Virus record (IMG/VR): IMGVR_UViG_3300031972_000800
Coordinates: 1 to 53,947 of that record
Source of the DNA: a virus
Taxonomy: Duplodnaviria > Caudoviricetes
Direction: 5' to 3' (one strand)
Length of the DNA stretch: 53,947 nucleotides
This document shows, piece by piece, positions 552 through 53,763 of this stretch. A program made the translations under genes and the position numbers. Position 1 is the first letter of the stretch. Each line of letters opens with the position of its first letter. The notes under the pieces are model-generated. The model worked only from the letters and a program-made list of their open reading frames with translations. It had not been told where the DNA came from and searched no databases.

Positions 552-619
552 TGACGAGTAGTGAGTTGGAAGAAATGTTGGATGAAATCTTTAGAAAAGT
601 TTTTGGAAAGGACTGGTAG
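551..619 (+). CDS. 22-aa small protein (MTSSELEEMLDEIFRKVFGKDW)
   Basis: Translated by hand. TAATG-coupled to the upstream stop and fills the gap before the ATG at 621. Too short for the ORF track. Confidence 0.6.
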   Translation: MTSSELEEMLDEIFRKVFGKDW

Positions 620-620
620 A

Positions 621-30961: not shown

Positions 30962-31579
30962 TTAAGAAGCTACGTCATAGCCAGTGATTGTAATAACTAA
31001 TCTACCCGCTGTATAAGTAGCATCGGTTGTTGCCCCAGCGGTTAAGTAAAGATACTGATCCGCCGCAATATCGCCACCAGCAACTAGACTACCCGCTGCT
31101 AAATCACCTGAGTTGATAATCAAAGTCTCAGTTAAATCAGAAATAGGAGTATCCTCCACACCTGTAGCTTCAGTAGCAGAATGCAGGTTAATATCTGGAT
31201 CACCACCCGCTGGAGTCTCAAGGCACATCATAGTAACGCCGAACACCGTACCTTGGTTTGCCGTTGTAACGCGACCAATGTAAGCAACACCCGAACCGTC
31301 TTTACCAATGATGTCCCCAGCCGCAGTCGAGCGCAAACCAGTAAGGTCAATCAAAATAGTGGTTTTTACGATATTGACGTTTGTTGAAGTATCGCTTTTG
31401 AACCGCTCTACTTGTGTAACGTATACAGCCGCAGTTCCTTCGATGCCAGCACCGCCAGCAGCTTCAGTCGCCATTTTCGATCCGCTGGTAATCGTAATTT
31501 CACCAGTAGTCGCATTTTTAGATACAGTTTCAAAACCGTTTTCAGAACGCACTGGTCCTGAGAAAGTTGTATTAGCCAT
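30962..31579 (-). CDS. virion structural protein (post-capsid gene)
   Basis: MANTTFSGPVRSENGF N-terminus; AGGAG RBS before ATG 31579. Confidence 0.72.
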   Translation of the reverse strand: MANTTFSGPVRSENGFETVSKNATTGEITITSGSKMATEAAGGAGIEGTAAVYVTQVERFKSDTSTNVNIVKTTILIDLTGLRSTAAGDIIGKDGSGVAYIGRVTTANQGTVFGVTMMCLETPAGGDPDINLHSATEATGVEDTPISDLTETLIINSGDLAAGSLVAGGDIAADQYLYLTAGATTDATYTAGRLVITITGYDVAS

Positions 31580-31584
31580 GAAGA

Positions 31585-31632
31585 TCTCCTGTCTTGGCAA
31601 ATGTCAGCCGCACCGTGCGGCTGTCAGGGATA
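31585..31632 (-). ncRNA. structured element downstream of the capsid gene (Mu-gpT-DE-like candidate)
   Basis: Minus strand CCTGAC-AGCCGCA-CGG-TGCGGCT-GAC-ATTTGCC-AAGA-CAGG: an inner hairpin closed by CCTG/CAGG that overlaps the RBS. Confidence 0.5.
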
Positions 31633-38107: not shown

Positions 38108-38304
38108 TAGAACTCTCCAACAAACCTCTGAGGTCGGGCTATCGGACTAAACCGCCTGTTCACCATACCGCCAGAAGAATATTTACTTTTACCCGCTTTG
38201 CTTAACGCAATAGCAACCGCTTGATCTTGCGGTTTCCCAGCAGCCATTTCTGTCTTGATGTTCTGGCTGATAACACCTTTAGATTTGCCTTCTTTTAGAG
38301 GCAT
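38107..38304 (-). CDS. small basic protein
   Basis: MPLKEGKS...ISQNI...[11 protein letters not shown]; C-terminal YSSGG motif. Confidence 0.75.
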
Positions 38305-40790: not shown

Positions 40791-42256
40791 CAGTAATACT
40801 CCCTTTTACGGGGCCTCCATTCAAGTTCGTCTTCTTCTTCGCCCTTCAAAGAAACAAAGCCTCCTTGTCGGAATCGCATCAGTGCTAACGTCATACTATC
40901 ACAAAAGTCATCATGATCACCATTAGGAAATGAAACTACTTCCTCAATCACCTCATCCGTAAACTTTTTGTCCTCAGGTGCCCATACCATACCAGCTTCA
41001 AATAATGGCGCAACCATGTGCATCCTAGTTACCTTATCACTCCCTTTACCCGGCGAAAAGCCCAAGGCCGGAATACCGCGAAGCCGCAACTCGTCAATAA
41101 GTGGCATTCCCGTCGCTTTCGCTTCGACCAACACCATGTCTGGCTCCCAGTATTCGTGTTCTTCATACGCAATCTCCTTGAGCTCTGGAAAATTCCAACG
41201 CCCACGACGAGCGTCCAATAATACAATGTTGTCCGAACCACCCTCTTCCGGAGTAAATATCCCCCAGGTCGTAATCGCACTGTAATCCGCAGTCTGCTTC
41301 TTCGAAAACGCCGTGTCATACGACTGAATTATATACTGAACCGGAGGAATCTCCTCCTTCTCCCACATCTGCCACCATTCCCGCTTAATAATCGCGGACT
41401 CAGATGTGGTAGGCTGCTGCTGCCACTGCGCATTCCACTTGCCAACAGGCAAAGACGCCTTAATCGATAATAACGCGTCCTTTTCCCAAAATTCAGGCCA
41501 TAAAGGATTATCACTAGGCATAATCGCAGGAAATTCCACAACTTCCCACTGATCCGACATCACATCACTGCCCTGCGCAGCAAGCAATCGACCAGTCAAA
41601 TCCTTCTTACCCCACCGGGTCATAACCAAAATAATCGCACCACCCGGCTGTAACCGCTGCCGAGGACCAGATGTGTACCACTCATACGCGTTGTCAAACG
41701 CACTATCGCTTAACGCATCCTGTTCCGAATGAGGGTCGTCAATAATAAGTAAATCCGCACCACGGCCCGTAATGGCCGCGCCAACACCCGCTGCAAAATA
41801 CTCCGCACCCTTGTCAGTGCCCCACTTACCAGCCCCCTTGTTGTCCTCTTTGAGATTAGTCTCCGGAAAAATCGATTTATACTCTGGATCATCAATTAAA
41901 TCCCTTACCTTCCTACCAAAACGTACCGCCAACTCAGTATTGTGCGTAGCCTGAATGATTTTTAATTTCGGATTTCTACCTAGAAACCAAGCAGGCATCA
42001 AGTAACTTGCAAACTCAGACTTCGAATGTCGAGGGGGCATGTTAATTATAAGCCGCTTGAGCTCCCCTCGTGCAACACGTTCAAGCTTTTCCGCAATAAT
42101 CCGGTGATGACGACCCTCGATAAAGTTGTCATACACATGATGAACAAACGGCATGAACTTTTCTTGCGCCTGCTCGCGCAAATCAAGCGTCTTCTTAGCC
42201 TCGGTTAAGGCTAAAATCTCCTTTAAAGCCTCTTCCGGTAAGGCCTGTAAACTCAT
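40790..42256 (-). CDS. terL: terminase large subunit
   Basis: MPPRHSKS Walker A, LLIIDDP Walker B, YDTA nuclease motif, HDDFCDS. Confidence 0.95.
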   Translation of the reverse strand: MSLQALPEEALKEILALTEAKKTLDLREQAQEKFMPFVHHVYDNFIEGRHHRIIAEKLERVARGELKRLIINMPPRHSKSEFASYLMPAWFLGRNPKLKIIQATHNTELAVRFGRKVRDLIDDPEYKSIFPETNLKEDNKGAGKWGTDKGAEYFAAGVGAAITGRGADLLIIDDPHSEQDALSDSAFDNAYEWYTSGPRQRLQPGGAIILVMTRWGKKDLTGRLLAAQGSDVMSDQWEVVEFPAIMPSDNPLWPEFWEKDALLSIKASLPVGKWNAQWQQQPTTSESAIIKREWWQMWEKEEIPPVQYIIQSYDTAFSKKQTADYSAITTWGIFTPEEGGSDNIVLLDARRGRWNFPELKEIAYEEHEYWEPDMVLVEAKATGMPLIDELRLRGIPALGFSPGKGSDKVTRMHMVAPLFEAGMVWAPEDKKFTDEVIEEVVSFPNGDHDDFCDSMTLALMRFRQGGFVSLKGEEEDELEWRPRKREYY

Positions 42257-43632
42257 TTATACCGAAAGAAATCTGAATAAGCAGGTAAACTGCCCACGCC
42301 AACCTGTCCGCCCGCCGCAAACTGTCCAGATCTGCGCATAAAACTAATGTCCTCAGAACCCGGTTGCAAAAATCCTCCGCCACCCACCGGAGGAGTGTAA
42401 TCTATATACTCAGAAAGCGGGGGTGGAGGTGGTGGAGGGGGAGGTGGTGCAGGGATCTTAGGTTTTTCAGGCGTAGCAACCGGATCAATTACACAAACCT
42501 GCGACTCTGGATCCATAATATATCCATTCGGACACGGGTCCGCTGGTGGAGCAACAAACCTTGAATCGTCATCGTCATCGCGGGATCCACTAGCAGCGGC
42601 TTTTCGATTCCTCTCCATCGTATCTTTGGTCCGCTGAACATAAGAAGCTGCGTCCTTACGGCTATAGCCCGCGTCCACAAGCTTCTGCTCCATTTCATCA
42701 AAACCTACACCAAAAGTTTGATAACCCATGCCTATATCAGCACCGATATTCGACGCCAGACCAAGTCCCGCACCTATTATTCCCATGCCGCCCAACATGC
42801 CCGACTTACCAGCACCGCCGCCATCCATCATGTCCCGTAACCGCTCGGCATAACTAATATTACCGTCATTGTTGTAATCGAAACCATACTCATAGGCGGG
42901 TTTAGTAGGCCTCTTAGGGGGTCTAATACCGCCAGGAGTAGTATCAGTGTCAGTGCCAGTGTCAGTGCCACCAGTGCCACCAGTGTCAGTGCCGCCAGTG
43001 TCAGTAACAGGGGGAATATCAGGCCTCTTAGGGGGTCTAATACCGCCAGGAGTAGTATCAGTATCAGTAACAGGGGGAATATCAGGCTTCGTAGGGGGTC
43101 TAGTACCGCCACCGCCAGTGCCAGGGGGAGGAGTGGGCGGGCCATAACCGCCGCTATCAGGCGGCGCTGAAGGATCAAAACCCGGACCGTCATCGTTTCC
43201 ACCGCTAGAAGGAGGAGTGGCCGGACCGTCGTCGTTTCCACCGCTAGAAGGAGGAGTGGCCGGGCCATAACCGCCACTATCAGGCGGCGCTGAAGGATCA
43301 AAACCCGGACCGTCATCGTCGTCGTCGTCGTCGTCGTCGTTAGAACCGCTGCCGCTGCCGATACCAGTCCCCTCACCGCTGCCATAACCGCTGTCGCCGG
43401 GAGGAAATGCAGGAATACCCATCGGGCCCTCAATGCCCATACCACCCTGCTCCATCAACAACGTCGCCTCATCAGGAGTTATATACGAAAGCATGTGAGG
43501 CTGACCCATAATGTCAGTCAGATGTGGAGGCTGCTCAATCGCAGAAGGCCGAACATCCGGAATAAACGGAGGAGAACCACGATCAATATTAAACTGTCGT
43601 ACCTTGCCGTCCTTGCCTACAATTACCGCCAT
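42253..43632 (-). CDS. Pro/Gly/Asp-rich low-complexity virion-associated protein
   Basis: HMLSYITPDEA motif, internal duplications, C-terminal FAAGG...GSL. Confidence 0.7.
   Translation of the reverse strand: MAVIVGKDGKVRQFNIDRGSPPFIPDVRPSAIEQPPHLTDIMGQPHMLSYITPDEATLLMEQGGMGIEGPMGIPAFPPGDSGYGSGEGTGIGSGSGSNDDDDDDDDDGPGFDPSAPPDSGGYGPATPPSSGGNDDGPATPPSSGGNDDGPGFDPSAPPDSGGYGPPTPPPGTGGGGTRPPTKPDIPPVTDTDTTPGGIRPPKRPDIPPVTDTGGTDTGGTGGTDTGTDTDTTPGGIRPPKRPTKPAYEYGFDYNNDGNISYAERLRDMMDGGGAGKSGMLGGMGIIGAGLGLASNIGADIGMGYQTFGVGFDEMEQKLVDAGYSRKDAASYVQRTKDTMERNRKAAASGSRDDDDDSRFVAPPADPCPNGYIMDPESQVCVIDPVATPEKPKIPAPPPPPPPPPPLSEYIDYTPPVGGGGFLQPGSEDISFMRRSGQFAAGGQVGVGSLPAYSDFFRYK
42905..43340. repeat. nested coding duplications and (GAC)n microsatellite
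   Basis: GPGFDPSAPPDSGGYGP x2, PATPPSSGGNDDG x2, DTTPGGIRPPKRP x2 and PDIPPVTDT x2 are near-identical at DNA level; poly-Asp run. Confidence 0.9.
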
Positions 43633-44060
43633 TAATAAAATCCCATCATCTGTGGCATCGATCCGCCATACCCACCATACGGCATAATACCCATTCCATA
43701 ACCGGGCATCATACCACCAAGCTGCTGCGGAGGCTGCATCTGATCCTGAACCGCGTCCTCTAAACTTCCAACCCGTGACTCAATAGGCGCAGACGAATCA
43801 AACATCCCACCACTCGAAACCATAGGACTATCAAACAATCCACCAAACTGACTAGGATCACTCTTGTAATCCTGAACAAAACGCTGACGATCTTCCTTGT
43901 CCATGCCCAAACTCTTGGCAAACTCCTTCGGATCAAACGGATTCCTCGAAGGCTGCTGATAACCACCATACCCAAAAAATCCACCAAGACCACCACCATA
44001 CGAATTAGACCCACCGTAATAGCTACCACCACCGCCTTGATACACCGCAGGACTTCTCAT
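43632..44060 (-). CDS. Gly/Tyr/Met-rich low-complexity protein
   Basis: TAATG-coupled; GAGGGG RBS-like sequence. Confidence 0.65.
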   Translation of the reverse strand: MRSPAVYQGGGGSYYGGSNSYGGGLGGFFGYGGYQQPSRNPFDPKEFAKSLGMDKEDRQRFVQDYKSDPSQFGGLFDSPMVSSGGMFDSSAPIESRVGSLEDAVQDQMQPPQQLGGMMPGYGMGIMPYGGYGGSMPQMMGFY

Positions 44061-44095
44061 AACTATCTTCCCCTCACAACAAAGATAAACGCATT

Positions 44096-44665
44096 CTAAC
44101 TAAAATCATACAATGAAGCAACGCCCAGATTCTCAACCGCTCGGCCCAAGGTCCGAGGCCTGATAAACGGACGAGCAGGAATCAATTCAGGATCCGAAAC
44201 AACCGGAATCTCAAAATCAACCGGACGAGCACGAGGACGAACCTCCGCAACCTCAAACTCCCCGTCAGACCGAGGACCACGAGTCGGTCCCAATATGTAA
44301 TCAACATACGAAACCGTCTCACGAGGCAAACCACCACCCTGATCCACACGACCAGGACCAGCGTTGTACGCAGCTAAAGCCTTCTCGTAATTCCCATCAT
44401 ACTTACCCAACATCGCAGATAAATAATCAGCGCCAAATCGTAAACTCTCAACAGGATCCAAACGATCCCTAATAGGACGAACCTCGTACCCAGGATCACG
44501 GGCCGTGTCTGGCATAATCTGAGCTATCCCCAATGCACCCTTCTCACTACGAGCCGTCGAATCAAAACCACTCTCCCGAGAAATCAAACGAACATATATA
44601 TCAGGATCAATACCACGAGACTCCGCCATCGATCTCGCCAACTTCTCCAAATACTCCCGCTCCAT
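44096..44665 (-). CDS. lytic transglycosylase (SLT domain), probably virion-associated
   Basis: ES catalytic motif, GALGIAQIMPDTA, ALAAYNAGPG, ETVSYV. Confidence 0.92.
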   Translation of the reverse strand: MEREYLEKLARSMAESRGIDPDIYVRLISRESGFDSTARSEKGALGIAQIMPDTARDPGYEVRPIRDRLDPVESLRFGADYLSAMLGKYDGNYEKALAAYNAGPGRVDQGGGLPRETVSYVDYILGPTRGPRSDGEFEVAEVRPRARPVDFEIPVVSDPELIPARPFIRPRTLGRAVENLGVASLYDFS

Positions 44666-45671
44666 CACAAATACTCCCGCTTTAAAGACACAAGTCCCCC
44701 AGTTGAAAACTTCTTAGTAGGAAACATCTTCCTATCAAAATCCATAGGATTTATAAAATCCCTGTTAATCGCAGAGCCAAGTTTTTTCCCCTCCGCAGAC
44801 AAGCGCGTAACTTCCGCTTTCGCATCCTCCGGATCCATATCCCGAAACGAAGAATAACCCGTGCCAAACAAATCCTTATATGCCCGCAATAACTGCTCCG
44901 AATCATCCTGTTCAGGACGAACCTTCCCAGTAACCGGACGAGGACTAGGCAACCTCTTCAATATAGGATCTAATTCCTTCATTAAAGAAACTATCCCCCT
45001 AACATCCGATACCCGCTCTAAATCAGGCAGCATCTTCCCATAACGACCCGTCTCCCCATATGTGAACTCCGTAGGCTCAGGACGCTGCTGAGACTTCATC
45101 GCCTCAGTACGAAGATACTCACTAACTCGATCCACAGTCGGTAACGCAGCTAACTCCTCCTCCGTTATATCCCCGCGCAACGCCGCCAATACCCCCTCGC
45201 GTAACTCAGGACTCTGTAAATCCGAACTCTTCGTCTTCTCAGTAATTACCCCAAAAATTCCCGCTTTAGAAAAAGGGTCCGTGGGTCGCGCATACTCATC
45301 CAAAAAAGGAGGATCAAACAACTCAACAAACTTTTCTTCCTGAGCAGCAGAAATCTGGCCTCTGTTCTGAAAAGGACCACCCGCCTCATCCAAAAGAGCA
45401 CCAACCTTGTCATACGCATCACGACCAAAACGATAAATAAATTCCGCAGGATTGTCGTTGTATAACTGACGTAACTCCATAATTCCTAAATGACGATACT
45501 CATGAGCCTCAACCCCAGGACCATATGGACTTGAACGAAGATCCTCGGGCATCGCTATTATGCCCGTCCTCTGAATTACCTGCGGCTCCATGCGTCCATA
45601 CCTAACCGCGTCACCAGCCCTGCGACCGTACTCCGTTATTGGATCCATCACAAATACTCCCGCTTTAAAGA
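44661..45671. repeat. 28-nt direct repeat at two consecutive gene junctions
   Basis: TCCATCACAAATACTCCCGCTTTAAAGA at 44661-44688 and 45644-45671; partial third copy CAAATACTCCCGCT at 44648. Confidence 0.95.
44665..45648 (-). CDS. hypothetical protein with HExxH (zincin-like) motif
   Basis: VEAHEYRHLG; C-terminal FSTGGLVSLKREYL. Confidence 0.7.
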   Translation of the reverse strand: MDPITEYGRRAGDAVRYGRMEPQVIQRTGIIAMPEDLRSSPYGPGVEAHEYRHLGIMELRQLYNDNPAEFIYRFGRDAYDKVGALLDEAGGPFQNRGQISAAQEEKFVELFDPPFLDEYARPTDPFSKAGIFGVITEKTKSSDLQSPELREGVLAALRGDITEEELAALPTVDRVSEYLRTEAMKSQQRPEPTEFTYGETGRYGKMLPDLERVSDVRGIVSLMKELDPILKRLPSPRPVTGKVRPEQDDSEQLLRAYKDLFGTGYSSFRDMDPEDAKAEVTRLSAEGKKLGSAINRDFINPMDFDRKMFPTKKFSTGGLVSLKREYL

Positions 45672-47990
45672 TCCAAGGCCCGTGAACCGAGGATCACGAA
45701 CCATACCCCCATTACGAAACGCAGAAATCCCCGTCTCCCGTAAGGCACGAAGAAAGTTTTCAGTAATCTCGAACCCCGGAACCTCGTGGTAAAAATAGTC
45801 GTCATCGTACCTGTCCCGACCAGCAATGGTTACATTGCCCAACTTCGGCATCTCTAAACCACTGTCCTTCTCTAACTTCGCTAAAATATTCTTAACACGA
45901 CTCGGAACAATCTTATCATAATATTCCCGCTGACCAGACAAATCACCCATCGTCATATCATAAGCCATGTCCCCAGTGCCCAACGTGAAAAACTCCAAAC
46001 CCTCGTTACTCGGTAAAGCAATCTGATCAAAAGCACTCTTAATCGCCATGTCCGTAACACGATTCGTCTTAAATAACTTCCCTAAACCAACATCCTCCGG
46101 AACCTGATACCCCGACTTATACTGAAGATCCGATAAAATACTCGCAGCACGACGCTTCTTGAAACTAGGATTCAAACCATCAAACACTTTTGATAGTTCT
46201 TTCCGCGATGCAGCATCAATATCTGGAAAAACACTTAGTACACCGTCTTGCTCAAAATACTTCTTCTTAACATCCGGTGATAACTGATCAAAAAACTCCA
46301 GCAATACATCACCACGAGCATCACCAACCGACTCCACACTGTTTAACGTCTCCAACATACCCGTCGGTAATGAATCCAAAACATTCCGAGCCTGTACCGC
46401 AGATCGAGAACGCTGCGTAATGTCCGACTGAATCTCCCCCAAATGAAACGATGAAGTACCCTCCAACCCACCATCCTTAGCCACAGGAAACACAGCAGAA
46501 CGATAATGTACAACAGGAACCCCGCTCACCGAACCAAAATGCTCGTCAGCACCCGGCAAACCCCGCGCACCATCATCAAAATTCTGGTTTAACGTTAATA
46601 CCGTCTCCTGATAATCACTCCCGCCCGGAGTGAAATACTGAGGATAAGCAACCCGATCCCCCTTTAAAACATTCACAGCAACCGGATCTTCAACTAACTG
46701 ATCAAAAACCTCATCCAAACTAACCCCGTCAGGAAAACGATTGCGAAGATCCTTCGTCGCTAAACCACGAGCTTCCAACTCCGCGGGCTTTACACCACGG
46801 TTCTCCAACGTCTTCACAAACTGATCAACAGAACCAAACTTCTGTTTCGGAAAATTAGGCAAAACAGGGTCTAAACTATCCCGCAATACCGAATCCTCAA
46901 ACAAACCAAACCGAAAACCCGTCCGATCAAAAGGATTTGTGTCACTAACATTTGCAAAAGGATCCAACGCACCACCCGGAGCAGTAGGCGGCGTATTGTT
47001 CTCCCGAGTAACACTCACCACAAAACCATAGTCCGGATTAAAATAATCATTAATAATCTCAGCTGAAACACCAGCATCTTCCGCTATCCGACGAGCCACC
47101 CTAACCCGGTCCTCAATGTCAATCGTCATTTCACCAAAACGAGCGTCAGCCATACTCATGTCCGGAGAAAACGCCGAAAGTAAATCGTCCTCAAACTCAC
47201 TAGCACCCATAATGTTGGGCAAACCATCCGTCCGCAACTGACGCAATAACGGCTGTAATATATCCATGTCCACAAATCGAGTGCCCGTATCAACATCAGT
47301 CGCCGTCACCGGATCAATTCGAGTAGTAACGGCTAGCTCAACCTGATTCTCGTCCGGTAAAAACTCTTCAGGACGTAAAACAACCTCCATAGTGGCCTCG
47401 TCAGGTCCAATAAACGGATCCATGCCAAACGAATCATCAATAGGAGGTTCAAGATAATCTATCAACGCCATCTCTTCAGTTTGATCGGAACGATCAAATT
47501 CACGATTTAAATAATCGTAATAATCGTTTTCAATCTCATCAGGCATTTGATAGTCAGCTTCAGGAAATTCAAAAGGTGCAAGGGCCTCATCAACATCAAC
47601 AGAAACATCAATCCGAGGCTCCTGCAAAGCCTGCTCCTGCAAAGCCAATAACTCATCTTCCGAATTAGCACGAGCCAACGCCTCCAACTGAGCCTCCGCA
47701 TCAGGGCCCGGACTCAAACCAAACATCTCCATTAAAGCTGCCTTGGCTGGCTGCTTTAAAACTCGACCAGCACCCAAAGTTAAAGCAGGGATTAACGTCT
47801 CTAATCCAGCCTCGATCCGATCTTCTGGCTTCTCGCCCGCCGTGCCAATGCGCCCAGCCGCCTCCATACCACGACGAAGACCCGTCGTCGGAACCAAATT
47901 AGAAACGTCATCCGCTCCAACCGACTGAAACAACGGACGAAGGCCCGGGGGAATATATTGCGTGATCGGTAAAGAAAATCTATCGGCCAT
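45648..47990 (-). CDS. large acidic virion/ejected protein with a polyvalent-protein-type domain
   Basis: GVKPAEL, TPGGSDYQETVL, HF, HYR and GEIQSD motifs resemble a domain recurrent in large phage ejected proteins. First gene of the late operon. Confidence 0.65.
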   Translation of the reverse strand: MADRFSLPITQYIPPGLRPLFQSVGADDVSNLVPTTGLRRGMEAAGRIGTAGEKPEDRIEAGLETLIPALTLGAGRVLKQPAKAALMEMFGLSPGPDAEAQLEALARANSEDELLALQEQALQEPRIDVSVDVDEALAPFEFPEADYQMPDEIENDYYDYLNREFDRSDQTEEMALIDYLEPPIDDSFGMDPFIGPDEATMEVVLRPEEFLPDENQVELAVTTRIDPVTATDVDTGTRFVDMDILQPLLRQLRTDGLPNIMGASEFEDDLLSAFSPDMSMADARFGEMTIDIEDRVRVARRIAEDAGVSAEIINDYFNPDYGFVVSVTRENNTPPTAPGGALDPFANVSDTNPFDRTGFRFGLFEDSVLRDSLDPVLPNFPKQKFGSVDQFVKTLENRGVKPAELEARGLATKDLRNRFPDGVSLDEVFDQLVEDPVAVNVLKGDRVAYPQYFTPGGSDYQETVLTLNQNFDDGARGLPGADEHFGSVSGVPVVHYRSAVFPVAKDGGLEGTSSFHLGEIQSDITQRSRSAVQARNVLDSLPTGMLETLNSVESVGDARGDVLLEFFDQLSPDVKKKYFEQDGVLSVFPDIDAASRKELSKVFDGLNPSFKKRRAASILSDLQYKSGYQVPEDVGLGKLFKTNRVTDMAIKSAFDQIALPSNEGLEFFTLGTGDMAYDMTMGDLSGQREYYDKIVPSRVKNILAKLEKDSGLEMPKLGNVTIAGRDRYDDDYFYHEVPGFEITENFLRALRETGISAFRNGGMVRDPRFTGLGSLKREYL

Positions 47991-48228
47991 CGGTTCTCTC
48001 AATAAAACTCAAATGAAATTATACCCGAAATAATTTAAAAGGGATAGGGGCCTCAAAGGCGGGATTCCCTATAGGGGGAAAACCCGAATGGAATTATTCT
48101 CGAATGAATTTACAAGACCAACATTATACAGACACCAGACGCACCGCACCGCCCAAAACGGGGGGATGGGGGTCGCAAGAGTCCCGATCCGTGCACCCAG
48201 ATTTGCCAAAGTAACCCCTAACAACGTA

Positions 48229-48274
48229 GAGTCGCCTGTTAACCTCGCAAGCTCGGGGCGACGAGAAGAAAAGA
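48229..48274. repeat. hairpin repeat, copy 1
   Basis: GAGTCGCCTGTTAACCTCGCAAGCTCGGGGCGACGAGAAGAAAAGA; second copy at 50950. Confidence 0.92.
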
Positions 48275-49013
48275 CAACGGGCCTTCAGCCCGTGCGGTAT
48301 CCGAACCGCAATCGGCCAACGGCTATAGCCCCGTTGGATCAGGCACTTAGAAACAGAGGAACCGTACCGATATGCGCTCTGACCCGCGCCCGATCTATCT
48401 CCACTGTACGGCGATGGCGCACTGCGCCGGGAACATCCTTCAGATGTTCTCACGCCTTGTGCACATCGTCGTGCAGCGGAGCCTCTTGAGATCGGTCAGT
48501 CGGATCAGGTGCGCCAGCTATACACACACACATTTTGAATGATACCTCTGGTGTGCCCTTCGTATTTATGCGTCGTCAACCCCATCACGTTTATTGTGTC
48601 CTTGCGGACTCATTCTTTTTGATGGGGTCGGAAGGTCACGGTGGACGTTAGGTCATTTGTATTGGACGTAACGTAACCTTGAGGCCCCAACAGATCTCTT
48701 TTGCTCTGGCGGACTTGCGGGCCGTAGTGTCCTCGTCCGGTGAGCAAATATGAGAGGTCAGTCTCAAGTTTACGAAACGTCAAATCCAAAGGACCTTACG
48801 TCAACCGGGACTACCCGAGCGGGGGCGCTCGGCTTCCTTGACCATTCCCTCAACCCAAACAGGAATCAACGGAAAAAAGAATTCCGGGCAACCCTTCTCC
48901 AAGCGTGCTCCGGGCCGCCCGGAATCCTTTTTGCATTTAAACTCTGTTAGGGATCTCGGCGCGATAAATTCAAATTGCAAACCGTAGGCATCATCACAAA
49001 TGTGTGGTGTGTA
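48231..49013 (+). ncRNA. candidate large structured non-coding RNA or leader
   Basis: More than 10 helices found by eye, including long-range closing stems and a 47-bp rod. G-T pairs favour the + strand. No credible CDS. Confidence 0.65.
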
Positions 49014-49036
49014 ACTCAAATATAGGAAATATCAAC

Positions 49037-49468
49037 ATGGATATCACAGTACTCAGATTGTCAGACGAAGTAAGCGAAATCAACCGGGCTCTGCGCCTCC
49101 TCAACTACGACTGGACAGACTTCGACTGTCAGATCCAAGGTGACGGGACAGGGTTCGACGCACAGCGCGTATGGTTCAAGCTCTACTATCGCGGGCTACC
49201 AACAGGCGACAGCAAGTCAGAAACATGGACGTTCAACTTCGACGGCCAGTACAACCTGCAAGACAACCTGCATCAAGTCACCGAAGCTATCTTGGACTTC
49301 ATTCAGAACCTTCCAACAGGCGACACGCTCAAGCAGCAACACATGGTTCGACTCTTCGAACAAGGTGGTCGCCTAGCCGAAGAGCTCGGGATCGACGAGG
49401 ATTTCATCAACCCGCTGGTCGGGATCATGGAAAAGTTGGCAACCAATGCCATCACTCATCGCAAGTAA
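49037..49468 (+). CDS. early hypothetical protein
   Basis: AGGA RBS before ATG 49037; first gene after the non-coding region. Confidence 0.75.
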   Translation: MDITVLRLSDEVSEINRALRLLNYDWTDFDCQIQGDGTGFDAQRVWFKLYYRGLPTGDSKSETWTFNFDGQYNLQDNLHQVTEAILDFIQNLPTGDTLKQQHMVRLFEQGGRLAEELGIDEDFINPLVGIMEKLATNAITHRK

Positions 49469-49511
49469 TTCAACCGGGGGCTGCGGCCCCCACCAACCAC
49501 AGGAGGCGCAC

Positions 49512-49841
49512 ATGCCACACAAACCACCCTTCAGATTCATCTCAGATGCAGCACATGGCTGGCTCGAAGTGTCACGCAATGACCTAGCCGTCATCGGACT
49601 ATCCGAAGCGGACTTCTCAGAGTTCAGCTACAAGCTCGGCGGGATGCTCTACCTCGAAGAAGATTGCGACGCAGCAACGTTCATCGGGACATACGAGGCA
49701 ATCCACGGCCACACGCCGCGCTTCACCGAGCACGATCACGGTAACTGGTCGCGCATTCGTAGCTTCCAACGGATCGAGAATCCCCACTTCACTTGGGAAA
49801 TCGACCAAGCACTTTCCACCATCCAAAACGAAGAGGTATAA
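49512..49841 (+). CDS. early protein (HGWL...YLEEDCD family)
   Basis: AGGAGG RBS; SDAAHGWLEV and YLEEDCDA motifs. Confidence 0.78.
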   Translation: MPHKPPFRFISDAAHGWLEVSRNDLAVIGLSEADFSEFSYKLGGMLYLEEDCDAATFIGTYEAIHGHTPRFTEHDHGNWSRIRSFQRIENPHFTWEIDQALSTIQNEEV

Positions 49842-49844
49842 CTC

Positions 49845-50144
49845 ATGGATAACCCAATCGACGCTTTCATCAACGCCATCGTGGACGGACTCAAGAAGCA
49901 CGAAGGCTTCAAAGAGTTCATCAAAGAGCAAAGCAAGGACAACGGGATCGACTACACCGAACTCAACGAGCGCTTCTGCGACCTGCTTCGGGACAACTCG
50001 TATGAAGTCAACGAGGTCGCACTCGAAGACTTCGACATCGACAACTACAGTTCCGGAATCACTGACATCATCGACAGTCATATCGACGACAAGTTCATGT
50101 CAGATCGCATCAAGAGTCTGGAATGGGAGATCCAAGTAAAATGA
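49845..50144 (+). CDS. highly acidic early protein
   Basis: GAGG RBS; Asp/Glu-rich. Confidence 0.72.
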   Translation: MDNPIDAFINAIVDGLKKHEGFKEFIKEQSKDNGIDYTELNERFCDLLRDNSYEVNEVALEDFDIDNYSSGITDIIDSHIDDKFMSDRIKSLEWEIQVK

Positions 50145-50506
50145 GAAAAGAAACGTACAAAATTGCACATGCGTTTCTAACAGGGCGGCCCGCAAAGGCT
50201 GCCCGAACGCATACCGACGGACAAACAGTCTGGCTGCACAACAACCGTATCGCATGGCGCAATAGAGACCATGACGTTTGCTTCACCCTAGCAGGGTGGC
50301 CCACCGTCACAACACGCGAGCGTATCAACGGACTGCTCAACGTCTTCGGACAGTCCAGATGGGGCGTCACCCAGCGCAAGCACGAGCAGTACCTCACCTT
50401 CTACGACCACCTGTCAGGCGTAGAACATCTGGAACCAATAGGCGACAACGAAGTAATCAGCTTCAACTGCCTGCGAACTTTCGAGAAGGAATACAAACTA
50501 TGCTAA
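50141..50506 (+). CDS. early hypothetical protein
   Basis: LHNNRIA...AGWPTVTTRERINGL motif; ATGA overlap. Confidence 0.75.
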   Translation: MRKETYKIAHAFLTGRPAKAARTHTDGQTVWLHNNRIAWRNRDHDVCFTLAGWPTVTTRERINGLLNVFGQSRWGVTQRKHEQYLTFYDHLSGVEHLEPIGDNEVISFNCLRTFEKEYKLC

Positions 50507-50670
50507 CTGAAATCGGACTATTTCGCACACCCGAAGACTGGGATGAAGTAATGCACTGGATCAACCTGCACAACCCAGAGGATCGAGCACACCTCGTTAC
50601 CGCTGCCGCCATGACTTGGAACCTAGCGGCTAAACTCACCGACACACAGAAGGAAACGGAAGATGCCTAA
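50500..50670 (+). CDS. early hypothetical protein
   Basis: AAGGA RBS; MLTEIGLFRTPEDW... Confidence 0.7.
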   Translation: MLTEIGLFRTPEDWDEVMHWINLHNPEDRAHLVTAAAMTWNLAAKLTDTQKETEDA

Positions 50671-50884
50671 ACCAATGTGGGAATGGACACACGACGAGAT
50701 CCGCGAATACTACGACAGCAACCCAGACATGACCATCCTGACATACGCTGGGGCGTTGGGACTAACAGGAGGTGAGCTCAAGGATATCCTGATGACAGAC
50801 GGTAGCGCCGTCGATAAGGAAGAAAAGGCCACCGCAGAAGCAATGTTCGAAACCGAAGCCAGAACAACGCGCAACTACTGGTAA
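50663..50884 (+). CDS. early hypothetical protein (HTH-like)
   Basis: YYDSNPDMTIL...ALGLTGGELKDIL. Confidence 0.7.
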   Translation: MPKPMWEWTHDEIREYYDSNPDMTILTYAGALGLTGGELKDILMTDGSAVDKEEKATAEAMFETEARTTRNYW

Positions 50885-50892
50885 CTAACACC

Positions 50893-50929
50893 GAAGGATA
50901 CCCGGCTCCTACGTCGCTGGGTATCCTTC
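50893..50929. terminator. strong hairpin between convergent operons
   Basis: GAAGGATACCCGGC / GCTGGGTATCCTTC 14-bp stem; U-tract is weak. Confidence 0.6.
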
Positions 50930-50949
50930 TCATCAAAAAGTTTTAAAAG

Positions 50950-50996
50950 GAGTTGCCTGTTAACCTCGCAAGCTCGGGGCAACAAAGAAGAAAAGA
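50950..50996. repeat. hairpin repeat, copy 2
   Basis: GAGTTGCCTGTTAACCTCGCAAGCTCGGGGCAACAAAGAAGAAAAGA. Confidence 0.92.
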
Positions 50997-51069
50997 GTTA
51001 TTGTGTCCTTCGGACTCTCTATCCTAGTTCCCATCCCCGGCAAGCCCGGGCCGGGAACCCGCCGCGCCA

Positions 51070-51150
51070 GAGTCGCAAGGCTCAGGCGCGAGCCGCAAGG
51101 CATAATATCAGCGGCAGCAGAGCCGCAAGGCCTCGAATAGAGACGCAAGG
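51070..51150. repeat. four phased 11-mers GAGNCGCAAGG
   Basis: Copies start at 51070, 51090, 51120 and 51140. Confidence 0.9.
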
Positions 51151-51497
51151 TCCTCGAAACTCTGCCCCTCAGCCCCCTCAATCCCCTTTTCAAGGAGCTC
51201 GGGCCCCTTATCTCCCCCAAATAAATATATCCTCTTGGTAGAGAGGGCCTTTACCAAGTAAAAATTATTGCCCCCGCGAGCCCAATACGCCATATTCCAC
51301 GCAATTTGATGCGGAGATATTTTTGGTTTGTTGTTTTTGACTGCTTTGAGCTCCGCCCAAAAAGAAATACCATCCCAGATTGCATGAACATCCGGTACAC
51401 CACCGCCATGCCTGTTTTCTATGCGGGTTGCGAAGCATTTTTCAGGCAGATTTTTCCTGATCGTGCTCCAAAAGTTGGACTCCGGTCCTCTGCTCAT
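51108..51497 (-). CDS. VRR-NUC/PD-(D/E)xK nuclease (Holliday-junction resolvase-like)
   Basis: E...RIEN...GVPD...WAELK...HQIAW. Confidence 0.8.
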   Translation of the reverse strand: MSRGPESNFWSTIRKNLPEKCFATRIENRHGGGVPDVHAIWDGISFWAELKAVKNNKPKISPHQIAWNMAYWARGGNNFYLVKALSTKRIYLFGGDKGPELLEKGIEGAEGQSFEDLASLFEALRLCCR

Positions 51498-51963
51498 CCG
51501 TTATATCCTCATATGATCCCTCGATTGTGAATGCTTGAGGGTATTTCTTTTGTAAATCCGACAGCCGAGCCACAATTTCATCGCGGGATAGCTGATCTAT
51601 CTGGTTGATATTCTCTCGTCTATCCACAGTCAAACCACCCAGAGCCGAGCGAATTTTTTCTGCGTTGATGGCCGCTGAAAACTGGCCCGCGTCCTCCGCG
51701 CCTTCGGAAAGTTGTTTCAGCCGCTGAAGCTGTCCAATGGTTGTCACCCCGTAAAGCCGTTCTCGCTCCTCCCTGAGCTCCTTTATGTATTCGAGCACAT
51801 GCGGATAGTCTCTGCCGTTTAACAGCACTGCTGCGCGCTCGTTTGCGAGATCAGCAGCATATCCTGCCTTCCTCGCGCATTCCGTATTCGAGTAGATCCC
51901 CTCGACAATGTGCCGAGCGAAAGTTTTCTGTCGATTTGTCAGTTTCTGGATTTTCCCAGCCAT
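51442..51963 (-). CDS. terS: terminase small subunit
   Basis: LTNRQKTFA...TECARKAGYA...V.EYI HTH pattern; GGAGG RBS. Confidence 0.8.
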   Translation of the reverse strand: MAGKIQKLTNRQKTFARHIVEGIYSNTECARKAGYAADLANERAAVLLNGRDYPHVLEYIKELREERERLYGVTTIGQLQRLKQLSEGAEDAGQFSAAINAEKIRSALGGLTVDRRENINQIDQLSRDEIVARLSDLQKKYPQAFTIEGSYEDITDEQRTGVQLLEHDQEKSA

Positions 51964-52304
51964 TTAAAATCCTCCGTATATAAGCAGTTTTATACCCCCT
52001 GTTTACAATCACAGTCAAATCACGAAGGGTTTGAAATTTGCCTAGTTGTCAAAAAGGGGGGGTGTTTACGTTTCTAACGTAAACCGTTTACGCAGTGTTT
52101 ACCTTTAAGGAAGGGGGTTAAACTACTGTATAACAACAATAAAACCCTTGTTTTTACAGATTTTAAACAAAACACTTTTTTTGAAAAAAAAAAAAAACGG
52201 AGAGGGGGGTCAAAAAACTGTATACAGGGGGTTGCAGTAACCATTATTTATCCTATATAACTTCTTACATACCTATTCATTCAATTCAATCTAGGAGTAT
52301 CGAT
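51964..52304. promoter_or_regulatory. AT-rich divergent control region and candidate replication origin
   Basis: Minus strand TTGACT-N18-TATAAA (52018-51989); + strand TTGCAG...TATA (52232-52261); GTTTAC repeats; long A/T tracts. Confidence 0.6.
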
Positions 52305-52610
52305 ATGACGACAGTCACATATAATCTACCTGCCTTTTGGGCCACTGCTCTGTTCTACGATGACACCAGTGCCTTCGAATCCTACGAGGATGACAAGCAA
52401 TTCCAAGACTTCTGCGCCTATATGCTCAAGGAGCACGGTTCGTCGGAGCCTGTTTCGTGCAGCGAGGACCCTGCTTTCATGAAGTATCACGACGCGCATC
52501 GTTTTGGTGTTTTGGCGTGTGATGTATTGGAGTTTACGTTTATTGAGGGTCGCGGCAATCCTGAGACGAGTGCGATGGTAACGTTGTCTCATACGATGGG
52601 GGGCGTGTAA
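52305..52610 (+). CDS. hypothetical protein
   Basis: AGGAG RBS; LPAFWATALFYDD motif. Confidence 0.75.
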   Translation: MTTVTYNLPAFWATALFYDDTSAFESYEDDKQFQDFCAYMLKEHGSSEPVSCSEDPAFMKYHDAHRFGVLACDVLEFTFIEGRGNPETSAMVTLSHTMGGV

Positions 52611-52611
52611 T

Positions 52612-52851
52612 ATGTATTCATACAACGCTATATGCGAGGACGACACTGTCCTGTTGAGCCCTACCTTGAAAACGATCAAGGCCCTACGGGCGAGGTACTT
52701 CCGCAATCGTGAGATGTTCAAGGACCGTGTTCCGGTGACGGAGATTATTGTATTCAAGGGTCGTAAGATTCACGGCTATTATACGTCTGATTTTAAGTTG
52801 GACAAAAGCAAGCCTGCTGATTTGCATAATATTTTATATGGGAGAGTGTGA
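52612..52851 (+). CDS. hypothetical protein
   Basis: In operon. Confidence 0.65.
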   Translation: MYSYNAICEDDTVLLSPTLKTIKALRARYFRNREMFKDRVPVTEIIVFKGRKIHGYYTSDFKLDKSKPADLHNILYGRV

Positions 52852-53099
52852 TGTCTTATAACGGATGGACGAACAAGGAGACTTGGTTGGTGCAGTTGTG
52901 GATAGGCGACAGCTTAACCATGGACCAAGAGGCGGGTCACGACATCACTGCTGATTACATTAAGCAGATTGTGGACGAGATGGCTTCGGCTTTGCTTGAT
53001 GGCCCTGACGCTAATGGTTTTATGACTGATTTATTTAACTGCGCTTTGTGTGAGATTGATTACCACGAGCTTGCTTCGCATTATGAGGAGGATGAGTGA
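52851..53099 (+). CDS. hypothetical protein (YNGWTNxETW family)
   Basis: Conserved-looking N-terminal motif; coupled. Confidence 0.75.
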   Translation: MSYNGWTNKETWLVQLWIGDSLTMDQEAGHDITADYIKQIVDEMASALLDGPDANGFMTDLFNCALCEIDYHELASHYEEDE

Positions 53100-53326
53100 T
53101 GATTCGGGATATTGAGATACGGGCCAAGCGTCCCTCTTTGGAGGAGGCGCAGGCTATTGTTGGTGGCTTGATTGAGATTGTGATTGACGATGGTGAGAAG
53201 CAGTTGATTGTGAACGAGGAGGGGTTGTTGTTGGGTTTACCATTTAACGAGACGGCCAGTCGCATGACTGGTCGGCATATAGTGGGTCCAGCATTACTGC
53301 TTGCGGGGGAGGCGATGTTAGACTGA
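53099..53326 (+). CDS. DUF3846-like protein
   Basis: LEEAQAIVGGLIE...IVNEEG...LPFN..AS...IVG. Confidence 0.8.
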   Translation: MIRDIEIRAKRPSLEEAQAIVGGLIEIVIDDGEKQLIVNEEGLLLGLPFNETASRMTGRHIVGPALLLAGEAMLD

Positions 53327-53763
53327 TGGCATATTTATTTGATCAGGAGATATTGAATATTGGCGTGTACCGAGGTGCGGGGATGGTTGTGAACGAGGTT
53401 TGTCCCTTGGACAATGGGATTGCGGAATACAGTGCGTCTGTTATTCGGGATCATTTTTACACGGCGGAAAAGACTGCTCGCATGTTTGGTGGTGGTATAA
53501 AGTTGTGTGTTTATGTGGAGTTTTCGGTTGAAGGGATTGCCTCGCATACGGGTTGGAAGAATGTGGAAGATTACAATGACATCACTGACGAGCCGAGGGC
53601 CAAGCGGTGGCGTGTTGTAGTTGAGCAGCGAAACGTTTTTTACGAGGAGGCTGAAACGGCAGAGGAGGCACGGCGCATCGCTGCTGAAGATCGCATCTGG
53701 GATGAGAACCAGAGCGGAGAAGATACTTATGATTTTGAAATTACTGTGGAGGAGGATGCGTGA
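53326..53763 (+). CDS. hypothetical protein
   Basis: GGAGG RBS; TGATG coupling. Confidence 0.7.
   Translation: MAYLFDQEILNIGVYRGAGMVVNEVCPLDNGIAEYSASVIRDHFYTAEKTARMFGGGIKLCVYVEFSVEGIASHTGWKNVEDYNDITDEPRAKRWRVVVEQRNVFYEEAETAEEARRIAAEDRIWDENQSGEDTYDFEITVEEDA

What the first reader, a model, noticed from the sequence alone, without database searches (positions are those of the whole stretch)
48229..50996. Covarying ~46-nt hairpin repeat brackets the structured element and the early genes
The two direct copies (48229, 50950) share TGTTAACCTCGCAAGCTCGG and a downstream AGAAGAAAAGA. Their closing stems differ by a compensatory pair: GTCGCC...GGCGAC versus GTTGCC...GGCAAC. That is within-genome covariation evidence that the hairpin is functional. 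The copies delimit a 2.7-kb block (structured region plus six early genes) that lies between terS and the late operon in the opposite orientation. Possible roles: boundary of an exchangeable module, antitermination site allowing minus-strand read-through from terS to the late genes, or packaging/injection signal.
Basis: partly seen in the sequence, partly recalled or inferred. Interest (0 to 1): 0.75.

Follow-up and report, generated by a model that had tools for sequence, protein, structure and literature searches.

The report
Conserved capped hairpin flanking phage cassette
Two copies of a small hairpin with an unchanging 20-base insert sit at both edges of a variable early-gene block in a marine phage, belong to an undescribed hairpin family shared by unrelated phages, and most likely mark where transcription stops.

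Summary
A 46/47-nt direct repeat lies at 48229-48274 and 50950-50996. Its 24-nt core occurs only at these two sites, with none expected by chance.

Across six distinct versions, including two sequence-unrelated contig types, all 6 outer pairs stay paired. Five of the 6 change on both sides, while the 20-nt insert stays fixed.

The 14-nt tip of that insert (plus strand CCTCGCAAGCTCGG) also caps hairpins of 6 to 20 bp in at least six further unrelated phage contexts. A stem of 6 bp or more flanks 11 of 105 instances, against 0 of 103 for a reversed control. No Rfam family or paper matches it.

On the minus strand the tip folds as C-G, C-G, tandem G·A, G-C and a CUUG loop, followed by U-rich sequence.

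The two copies bracket a mosaic cassette with conserved outer flanks.

My best reading, at about 0.4, is minus-strand terminator/insulator hairpins at the cassette borders. They may double as module-exchange points. Nothing supports antitermination or packaging. The transcribed strand and any factor reading the invariant loop are unproven.

The parts
48229..48274 (-). Repeat copy 1. Outer stem 48231-48236 pairs with 48257-48262. The invariant insert is 48237-48256: a 6-nt bulge at 48237-48242 and a 14-nt cap at 48243-48256. The purine-rich tail is 48263-48274 (pyrimidine-rich on the minus strand).
   Evidence: covariation; the strand assignment is inferred
50950..50996 (-). Repeat copy 2. Outer stem 50952-50957 pairs with 50978-50983. 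The bulge is 50958-50963, the cap 50964-50977 and the tail 50984-50996. On the minus strand it is followed by UCCUUUUAAAACUUUUU.
48277..48293 (-). Small minus-strand hairpin (ACGGGC UGAAG GCCCGU). Its U tract is the tail of repeat copy 1, so it forms a tandem terminator-like pair with copy 1.
   Evidence: terminator-like site; the total number of such sites in the region is not above shuffle expectation
50893..50929 (+). Plus-strand hairpin after the last cassette ORF. It is the likely terminator of the cassette, convergent with copy 2.
   Evidence: variant lineages have GGGGCTTCGGCCCC here
48264..49011 (.). Highly structured stretch without a convincing ORF, between copy 1 and the first cassette ORF. 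It contains a roughly 490-nt domain closed by pairing of 48521-48587 with 48945-49013.
   Evidence: (the stretch folded was 48227-49011, which also includes hairpin copy 1; z about -11 on both strands)
49038..50884 (+). Compact run of five or six small plus-strand ORFs, the variable cassette. Only 50123-50506 has a family hit (Kyano_Gp96, phrog_554).
48005..48224 (-). Conserved non-coding element directly upstream of the late operon, ending AGTAACCCC next to copy 1. It holds a minus-strand TATAAT box near 48122-48127.
   Evidence: found in 15 TerL-group relatives that lack the hairpin
51060..51160 (+). Array of four CGCAAGG motifs (51074, 51094, 51124, 51144) between copy 2 and the nuclease gene. 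Relatives have analogous short-repeat arrays at the same place.
51108..51963 (-). Minus-strand terS-like gene (51442-51963) and nuclease-like gene (51108-51497). Copy 2 lies at the 3' end of this unit.
   Evidence: phrog_51 2.1e-12; phrog_2165 4e-18; Pfam Terminase_2 below its cut-off

Best explanation
Each copy is a cis-acting hairpin. A 6-bp helix of free but complementary sequence closes an invariant 20-nt insert.

Read on the minus strand, which is the strand of terS and the late operon, the insert forms a compact cap: C-G, C-G, tandem G·A/A·G in the CGAG/CGAG context, G-C, and a CUUG tetraloop. A 6-nt 3' bulge UUAACA follows. The hairpin is preceded by a CU-rich tract and followed by U-rich sequence.

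I read both copies as terminator/insulator hairpins for the host RNA polymerase on the minus strand. Copy 2 would end the terS-nuclease unit before it runs antisense into the plus-strand cassette. Copy 1, in tandem with the small hairpin at 48277-48293, would stop minus-strand transcription coming out of the structured and cassette region about 100 nt before the conserved late-promoter element.

Because the copies are direct repeats at the borders between conserved backbone and a mosaic cassette, they are also natural crossover points for swapping the cassette.

Shown: the repeat, the stem covariation, the invariant insert, its spread to unrelated phages, the U-rich minus-strand flanks and the mosaic pattern.

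Inferred: that the element acts as RNA, that the minus strand is the active one, that it terminates transcription, and that some factor or special folding property explains the invariant insert.
For: 1. Selection on the helix. In 6 distinct versions (window copies 1 and 2, their two loop variants, and the unrelated contigs L115 and L209), the 6 outer pairs are paired in 100% of cells. Five of the 6 pairs change on both sides. None of 500 shuffles reached the observed covariation score, and sliding the partners destroys the pairing.

2. Invariant insert. The identical 20-nt insert appears in the L115-type contigs (4 loci) with the entirely different stem GCCATGC/GCATGGC and no other similarity to the window.

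3. Minus-strand fold.
- The cap gives the CGAG/CGAG tandem G·A motif and a gCUUGc loop. That these motifs are stabilising is recalled knowledge.
- A clamped cap oligo folds at -6.2 kcal/mol on the minus strand against -4.9 on the plus strand.
- All 5 of 5 long G001/G002 hairpins with this cap fold 7 to 12 kcal/mol better on that strand.
- The natural TC-to-GA variant turns the two G·A pairs into G-C and A-U, so the helix is preserved.

4. U-rich 3' flank on the minus strand in 4 of 4 bulged contexts: UCUACGUUGU, UCCUUUUAAA, UCUUUGUGA and GCUCUAUUUUU. On the plus strand the 10 nt after the stem hold 0, 0, 0 and 2 T.

5. Position.
- Copy 2 lies 125 nt after the nuclease stop codon.
- The three relatives examined that lack the hairpin (L040, L073, L076) have a stem-loop at the same slot. 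In L040 it is GGGGCCGAAGCCCC flanked by A- and T-runs.
- Copy 1 abuts the conserved late-promoter element.
- Relative L021 has two other hairpins, each preceded by a CU-rich tract, in that slot.

6. The U tract stays with the hairpin. The first 20 nt left of copy 2 are kept in 36 of 37 relatives, but only 21 of 37 keep the next 20 nt.

7. No phage RNA polymerase was found among the 54 ORFs scanned, so the phage is expected to depend on host polymerase and its terminators.
Against: - Folding energy. The isolated hairpins are no more stable than shuffled sequence (z +0.17 to -0.73).
- Terminator scan. The scan called neither copy, because the 20-nt 'loop' exceeds its limit. Terminator-like sites in the region are not above shuffle expectation, at 7 against 5.0.
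- Copy 1 is a weak case. Its U tract is weak, and no minus-strand gene lies upstream of it.
- A plain terminator does not explain why 20 nt, including the UUAACA bulge, are invariant while the stem is free.
- Orientation elsewhere is mixed. In L115, L209 and L251 both flanking genes are on the other strand relative to the G·A form. The long capped hairpins of G001, L223, L251 and L164 have no U tract on either side.
- No strand-specific RNA evidence exists. Contigs from four RNA libraries cover both copies but cannot show strand or ends, and may be DNA carry-over.
- The minus strand is G+T-richer, which alone favours its folding.
Confidence: 0.4

Rival explanations
1. The element acts as plus-strand RNA belonging to the cassette transcript. 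Copy 1 would sit in the long 5' leader and copy 2 just past the 3' end. It would serve as a processive antitermination (put- or nut-like) signal, or as an mRNA processing or stability signal. That would let the polymerase pass the hairpin-rich leader (48264-49037) and the region after copy 2.
For: - Both copies point in the direction of the cassette genes.
- A promoter-like site (TTGCCA-18-TAGAGT, 48203-48232) lies just upstream of copy 1. Plus-strand terminator-like hairpins lie downstream in the leader, for example 48909-48923.
- In L115, L209 and L251 the flanking genes are on the strand that reads the cap as CCUCGCAAGCUCGG.
- A purine-rich tract follows the hairpin on this strand in the window, L223 and L251.
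Against: - A transcript from the predicted promoter would start inside the hairpin and lack its 5' arm.
- On this strand the cap has tandem U·C/C·U mismatches and folds less well.
- In L115, L209 and at window copy 2 the hairpin lies directly after a plus-strand terminator. Plus-strand transcripts should therefore mostly not reach it.
- No nut, put or other antitermination family was matched. No N- or Q-like gene was seen.
Confidence: 0.15
2. The primary role is at the DNA level. The two direct repeats would be recombination sites that mobilise or swap the cassette, like the PeSL promoter-terminator motifs of T4-type phages. Alternatively, the extruded hairpin would be recognised as DNA for priming, nicking or resolution.
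For: - Direct repeats bracket a mosaic block. The outer flanks are conserved (right of copy 2: 36 of 36 relatives), while the inner flanks are replaced.
- One variant class (L098, L112, L140) diverges within 3 nt of the end of copy 1's repeat.
- Copy spacing ranges from 2618 to 3171 nt.
- The PeSL precedent comes from the abstract of PMC4122927 and the search listing of PMC2839356.
- Orientation of the cap relative to genes is mixed across phages, which suits a DNA-level role.
- A junction-resolvase-like nuclease gene lies next to copy 2 (weak hits).
Against: - No recombinant was seen. None of 59 instances has a hybrid stem such as GTCGCC...GGCAAC.
- No contig in the four runs laid joins one copy to the other.
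- The copy-specific stems are stable across relatives that are 83-99% identical, so no gene conversion occurs between the copies.
- Most mosaic junctions lie inside the block, not at the repeats.
- No recombinase or transposase family was found in the block.
- A recombinase site would keep the arms and vary the spacer, which is the opposite of what is seen.
- A convincing promoter half of a PeSL is missing at copy 2.
Confidence: 0.2
3. The element has no function of its own. It would be a short palindrome duplicated by chance and kept complementary by templated (quasi-palindrome) mutation.
For: - The TC-to-GA double change in the loop is exactly what arm-templated correction would produce. It occurs at copy 1 (11 of 16 metagenome instances) and once at copy 2 (1 of 24).
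- Folding energy is unremarkable.
Against: - The 20-nt insert is identical in unrelated contigs with entirely different stems.
- Apart from the TC/GA dinucleotide, the unconstrained stems show no variation across 40 instances, while the adjacent tail varies.
- The cap is enriched at hairpin tips, 11 of 105 against 0 of 103 for the control.
Confidence: 0.05

Closest known systems
Intrinsic (Rho-independent) terminators, including convergent double terminators between phage transcription units
   Same: On the minus strand it is a G+C-rich hairpin followed by U-rich sequence. Copy 2 lies at the 3' end of an operon, facing the cassette's own plus-strand hairpin. Relatives have a stem-loop in the same slot, in L040 one flanked by A- and T-runs.
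   Different: The helix is interrupted by a 6-nt bulge. The 20-nt insert is invariant across unrelated phages while the stem is free. Ordinary terminators show no such sequence constraint. Copy 1 has a poor U tract and no upstream gene.
PeSL (promoter-early stem-loop) cassettes of T4-type phages (PMC2839356, search listing only; PMC4122927, abstract read)
   Same: Short conserved stem-loop motifs at the borders of variable early genes, proposed there as points of genetic exchange. Here too the repeats bracket a mosaic block.
   Different: There are only two copies, which bracket the whole block rather than each ORF. No convincing sigma-70 promoter half was found. No recombinant between the copies was seen. 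The motif sequence is unrelated, and the phage group is different (HTVC023P-like podovirus relatives).
Lambda nut (boxA/boxB) and HK022 put antitermination RNAs (recalled knowledge)
   Same: Two similar small structured elements per genome, with covariation between the copies. The bulge UUAACA resembles part of boxA (recalled).
   Different: Those elements lie just downstream of promoters in divergent orientations. Here both copies are in the same orientation, and they are followed by U tracts on the strand that folds best. No Rfam match was found, and no N-like gene.
ssoA-type single-strand origins of rolling-circle plasmids (recalled knowledge)
   Same: Long imperfect palindromes whose stems differ between replicons while a short loop sequence is conserved. 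This resembles the 190-nt capped hairpins of G001.
   Different: The window's hairpin is only 6 + 5 bp. G001 has a fourth, inverted element, so orientation is not strand-uniform. No rolling-circle Rep protein was seen.

Membership tests
Intrinsic terminator | G+C-rich stem-loop with a small loop (3-8 nt) | tested here: inconclusive
   The outer stem is 6 bp, with 4 or 5 G-C pairs. The 20-nt insert folds into a 5-position cap with a 4-nt loop plus a 6-nt bulge. The scan tool does not call it because the unfolded loop is 20 nt.
Intrinsic terminator | U tract directly after the stem on the transcribed strand | tested here: met
   On the minus strand copy 2 is followed by UCCUUUUAAA and copy 1 by UCUACGUUGU (weaker). 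L115 has UCUUUGUGA and L209 GCUCUAUUUUU. The plus strand holds 0-2 T in 10 nt.
Intrinsic terminator | Lies at the 3' end of a transcription unit on that strand | tested here: inconclusive
   Copy 2 does, 125 nt after the nuclease stop codon. Copy 1 has no annotated minus-strand gene upstream, only the structured non-coding stretch.
Intrinsic terminator | Measured termination of transcription | not testable with these tools
   Only unstranded contigs of RNA libraries were available.
PeSL-type promoter/terminator exchange cassette | Stem-loop joined to an early sigma-70 promoter | tested here: not met
   A single 9-of-12 promoter-like site overlaps copy 1 (48203-48232), and none lies at copy 2. 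The number of such sites equals shuffle expectation.
PeSL-type promoter/terminator exchange cassette | Indel and replacement breakpoints between relatives fall at the motif | tested here: inconclusive
   Outer flanks are conserved and inner flanks are mosaic. One variant class breaks within 3 nt of the end of copy 1's repeat, and the break left of copy 2 lies about 20 nt away. Many breakpoints are internal to the block.
Nut/put-type processive antitermination RNA | Located in the transcribed leader shortly after a promoter, with terminators downstream | tested here: inconclusive
   This is possible only for copy 1 on the plus strand. The predicted start would fall inside the hairpin.
Nut/put-type processive antitermination RNA | Match to the described RNA families | tested here: not met
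   No Rfam match at gathering score in the window. None at E up to 5 in 47800-52400, apart from chance miRNA-type hits.
Any Rfam family | Covariance-model match | tested here: not met
   The only curated hit in the window is Mu-gpT-DE at 31577-31629, which is unrelated to this element.
Recombinase or integron-type site | Conserved protein-binding arms around a variable spacer, with a cognate recombinase nearby | tested here: not met
   The arms vary and the 'spacer' is invariant. No recombinase family was found among the ORFs from 38304 to 53763.

The most novel reading that the evidence does not exclude
The window's repeat is one member of a previously undescribed, horizontally spread family of phage intergenic hairpins. 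They share an invariant 14-nt cap: a tandem G·A motif with a CUUG loop on one strand. The cap occurs in phages with 35-56% G+C that share no detectable neighbouring genes. It would be read by a universal component, such as the bacterial transcription or RNA-processing machinery. The hairpins would then act as portable boundary elements that both insulate transcription units and seed the exchange of gene cassettes.
Probability: 0.2. Interest if true: 0.75.

Novelty: new variant of a known kind. Interest (0 to 1): 0.55.

Why it matters
Relatives of the abundant HTVC023P-type marine podoviruses are known almost only from sequence, and their transcription signals are uncharted. This element offers three things:
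- A hairpin with a free stem and a strictly fixed 20-nt insert, shared with unrelated phages, is a concrete and testable regulatory element.
- Its position gives a handle on how the early cassette is insulated from the terS and late operons.
- It also bears on how cassettes are swapped between relatives.

If a common host factor reads the cap, the motif would be a new portable signal for phage genome annotation and for synthetic constructs. If it is only an unusually good terminator cap, it is a modest addition to known terminator diversity.

Tried and rejected
- Phage records. DNA similarity of 47900-51300 to deposited phage records gave no match.
- tRNA genes. None in the window.
- Close and group relatives. 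Among the best 80 TerL-related loci (87-92% aa identity), only L048 holds the repeat, and it is the same contig as L015. Model R1, run over the other 79 TerL loci (L048 left out), the window and 9 further loci, found no further convincing copy. The best hit in a TerL-group locus was 16.7 bits, E 0.19. The element is therefore confined to a narrow lineage within that group.
- Bacterial and archaeal genomes. The 18-mer found 4 matches, none with a flanking stem, so these are chance hits.
- Phage RNA polymerase promoter idea. The insert faintly resembles a T3-type promoter (recalled). I dropped this because no RNA polymerase was found in the window (54 ORFs) or among the 15 G001 ORFs scanned.
- Shared trans-acting protein. 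tblastx among the hairpin neighbourhoods of 7 contexts found nothing beyond the hairpin itself. G001 against the whole window gave no hit at E 1e-3.
- CRISPR repeat, tRNA-derived att site, integron attC and IS200/605 ends. I considered these and set them aside on architecture (recalled definitions), and because no cognate enzyme was found.
- RNA libraries. Contigs from 4 runs cover both copies, but they give no strand, no ends and no copy-to-copy joint. This is not used as evidence either way.
- Earlier notes of this scan. Nothing for this genome or this sequence.
- Covariation in the structured stretch. It is weak: in 48264-48470, 3 compensatory against 5 broken pairs on the minus strand, and 1 against 9 on the plus strand.
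- Failed steps.
Full report
**1. The observation**

A self-comparison aligns 48229-48274 with 50950-50996 at 91.5% over 47 columns with one gap. The repeat finder lists the 34-nt hairpin part as a two-copy family at 94% identity.

The 24-nt core has 2 matches in the window even with 3 mismatches allowed, and none in 100 shuffles. The window is the whole record of an uncultured virus: 53,947 nt, linear, estimated 94% complete.

The stems are GTCGCC/GGCGAC and GTTGCC/GGCAAC. The only stem difference is the paired C48233-G48260 against T50954-A50981.

Folded alone, the hairpins are unremarkable. Energies run from -9.5 to -12.4 kcal/mol and z-scores from +0.17 to -0.73. Energy alone therefore gives no support.

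**2. Genome context**

PHROG and Pfam scans of 54 ORFs give this layout:
- Plus strand, 6-11.8 kb: primase, helicase and family-A DNA polymerase.
- Minus strand: a structural and packaging operon running from about 48002 down to 11833. It starts with a 784-aa protein with no family hit, then an SLT-domain protein, TerL (40790-42256), portal, a Mu-gpT-like capsid region, tail fibre proteins and endolysin.
- Minus strand: a small unit with a terS-like gene (51442-51963) and a nuclease-like gene (51108-51497).

No RNA polymerase was found. The closest cultured phages by TerL are phage 023Pt_psg01 (60.7% identity) and Pelagibacter phage HTVC027P (59.5%). The block between the copies holds about 0.8 kb without a convincing ORF, then a compact run of small plus-strand ORFs at 49038-50884.

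**3. Close relatives keep both copies and their copy-specific stems**

Exact-word scans found the element on 11 loci of viral contigs and 49 loci of metagenome contigs. The two collections partly hold the same contigs, so these counts are not independent.

The 49 metagenome loci break down as follows:
- 40 belong to the window's lineage.
 - 16 are copy 1, all with GTCGCC/GGCGAC.
 - 24 are copy 2, all with GTTGCC/GGCAAC.
- 4 are a different contig type (section 4).
- 5 have no flanking stem and look like chance matches.

Counting the viral loci and the window as well, none of 59 instances has a hybrid stem. These relatives are 83-99% identical to the window in DNA.

One natural variant turns the loop dinucleotide TC into GA. 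It occurs in 11 of 16 copy-1 instances and 1 of 24 copy-2 instances.

**4. The stem covaries completely and the insert does not change**

Four metagenome loci (L101, L115, L121, L130) carry the identical 20-nt insert between a wholly different 7-bp stem, GCCATGC/GCATGGC. Apart from 22 nt, these contigs show no DNA or translated similarity to the window. Locus L209 has the same stem and cap but a 4-nt bulge.

An ungapped alignment of the six distinct versions gives these counts:
- The 6 outer pairs are paired in 100% of cells.
- 5 of the 6 pairs change on both sides.
- None of 500 shuffles reached the covariation score.
- Pairing collapses when the partners are slid.

One caution applies. In DNA inverted repeats, matched changes can arise in a single step by arm-templated mutation. 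The TC-to-GA change looks like exactly that. Still, keeping a helix through a complete sequence turnover implies selection.

**5. A wider family defined by the 14-nt cap**

Of these, 11 have a perfect flanking stem of 6 bp or more, and 6 have one of 12 bp or more. The same 14-mer read backwards gave 103 distinct instances with no stem of 6 bp or more.

Members include:
- G001 (56.5 kb, complete): three roughly 190-nt near-perfect hairpins that share their base and cap but differ in the apical stem with full compensation. A fourth, inverted element carries the related cap CGAG-CGTAG-CGAG.
- G002, which holds the same element type.
- Single copies in G003, G005 and G006.
- One copy in G004.

The 3-kb loci around the cap have 35-56% G+C in G003, G005 and G006, and G001 as a whole has 56%. 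They share no detectable neighbouring protein with each other or with the window.

No Rfam family matches any member. One full-text search for the motif strings found only an unrelated primer. The bulged version is absent from 185,579 representative bacterial and archaeal genomes: 4 matches, none with a stem.

Within the TerL group the element is confined to the window's own lineage. Of the best 80 TerL loci, only L048 holds the repeat, and it is the same contig as L015. None of the 15 relatives that keep the neighbouring late-promoter element has it. Model R1, run over the other 79 TerL loci, found no copy either.

**6. Which strand?**

On the minus strand the cap reads CCGAG-CUUG-CGAGG. That gives two C-G pairs, a tandem G·A/A·G in the CGAG/CGAG context, a G-C pair and a CUUG loop. 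From recalled RNA thermodynamics and NMR work, both the tandem G·A motif and the loop are stabilising. On the plus strand the same positions are U·C/C·U mismatches.

Evidence favouring the minus strand:
- The clamped cap folds at -6.2 kcal/mol against -4.9 on the plus strand.
- All 5 of 5 long G001/G002 hairpins fold 7 to 12 kcal/mol better on the G·A strand.
- The natural GA variant converts the two G·A pairs into Watson-Crick pairs.
- On this strand the hairpin is followed by U-rich sequence in 4 of 4 bulged contexts. The plus strand has 0-2 T in the 10 nt after the stem.

Evidence against:
- The minus strand is richer in G+T, which alone favours its folding.
- In L115, L209 and L251 the flanking genes lie on the other strand.
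- The long capped hairpins have no U tract on either side.
- Orientation relative to genes is mixed overall.

RNA-library contigs cover both copies but carry no strand information.

**7. Position and the cassette**

On the minus strand, copy 2 lies 125 nt after the nuclease stop codon, beyond an array of CGCAAGG motifs. It faces the cassette's own plus-strand hairpin at 50893-50929. The A/U-rich spacer between the two supplies U tracts in both directions. The three relatives examined that lack the element (L040, L073, L076) have a similar short-repeat array followed by a stem-loop at this slot, in L040 one flanked by A- and T-runs.

Copy 1 directly abuts a non-coding element (48005-48224, ending AGTAACCCC). 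That element is conserved at 64-73% identity across most or all of its length in 8 of the 15 TerL-group relatives and in shorter parts of it in the other 7, and contains a minus-strand TATAAT box. Upstream of copy 1 on the minus strand, a small hairpin at 48277-48293 uses the repeat's pyrimidine tract as its U tract. Relative L021 has two different hairpins, each preceded by a CU-rich tract, in the same slot.

Between the copies the sequence is mosaic among close relatives:
- The 240 nt right of copy 2 are kept in all relatives that have sequence there (36 of 36 at the first 20-nt bin, 33 of 33 at the last).
- The 20 nt left of copy 2 are kept in 36 of 37, but the next 20 nt in only 21 of 37.
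- To the right of copy 1, three loci diverge within 3 nt of the repeat's end and three more about 30 nt further on.
- Spacing between the copies ranges from 2618 to 3171 nt in the contigs that hold both.

**8. Reading**

The data fit a structured boundary element. I think it most likely acts as minus-strand RNA, as a terminator or insulator at both borders of the variable plus-strand cassette (confidence about 0.4). Module exchange would be a likely by-product of having direct repeats there.

The invariant insert is not explained by plain termination. It suggests a reader or a special folding property that I could not identify.

The rivals are:
- A plus-strand RNA role in the cassette transcript (0.15).
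- A primary DNA-level recombination or hairpin-recognition role (0.2).
- No function (0.05).

The remaining weight is for mechanisms not listed.

**9. Novelty**

The motif is not in Rfam. One full-text search for the motif strings found no paper describing it. As a kind of object it is close to known terminator and boundary hairpins and to the PeSL concept (PMC4122927, abstract read; PMC2839356, search listing). Its architecture is new, though: a free stem around a fixed bulge and cap, spread across unrelated phages.

Noticed in passing
window 48227-49011: About 0.8 kb without a convincing ORF that folds far better than shuffled sequence on both strands (-349 and -334 kcal/mol, z about -11). 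It includes a roughly 490-nt domain closed by pairing of 48521-48587 with 48945-49013, and a long palindrome at 48854-48952. Parts of it are replaced wholesale in close relatives. It could be a large non-coding RNA or an origin-like region.
   Followed up: partly
window 48005-48224: A non-coding element upstream of the late operon, conserved at 64-73% identity across most or all of its length in 8 of 15 TerL-group relatives and in shorter parts in the other 7. It has a CCCCCC-AAAA-GGGGGG hairpin, the motif AGTAACCCC and a minus-strand TATAAT box. It is probably the late promoter with an activator site.
   Followed up: partly
window 51060-51160, and relatives L040, L073, L076: An array of four CGCAAGG motifs spaced 20, 30 and 20 nt, just downstream of the terS-nuclease genes. 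Relatives have different short G+C-rich repeats (CTGCG-type, GTCGGG-type) at the same place. It looks like a protein-binding array, possibly the pac site or iterons.
   Followed up: no
G001 (loci L378-L380) at 1869, 16064, 29376 and 46931: Four roughly 190-nt near-perfect hairpins in an unrelated 56.5-kb podovirus-like genome. They share base stems that contain further CCGAGG/CCGAGG tandem G·A motifs. The apical stems are variable but fully compensated. One element is inverted and has a different cap.
   Followed up: partly
window 31577-31629 (minus strand): A curated Rfam match to Mu-gpT-DE RNA (72.1 bits, E 7e-15), downstream of the capsid gene.
   Followed up: no
window 48592-48625 and 50998-51025: A second short shared element, GTTTATTGTGTCCTTGCGGACTC against GTTATTGTGTCCTTCGGACTC. 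The first is followed by a T-run on the plus strand. The second directly follows repeat copy 2.
   Followed up: no
window 45648-48002 (minus strand): The first gene of the late operon encodes a 784-aa protein with no PHROG or Pfam hit. Only three related loci were found in viral contigs, at 81-86% identity.
   Followed up: no
relatives L058, L076, L079, L080, L041, L039, L040, L018, L029 and L209: A recurring motif, (A)ACTTGTA(A/G)(A/T)T, next to TTGACA-type promoters upstream of the early genes. It is likely an operator for the phage's HTH repressor-like protein (window 561-965).
   Followed up: no
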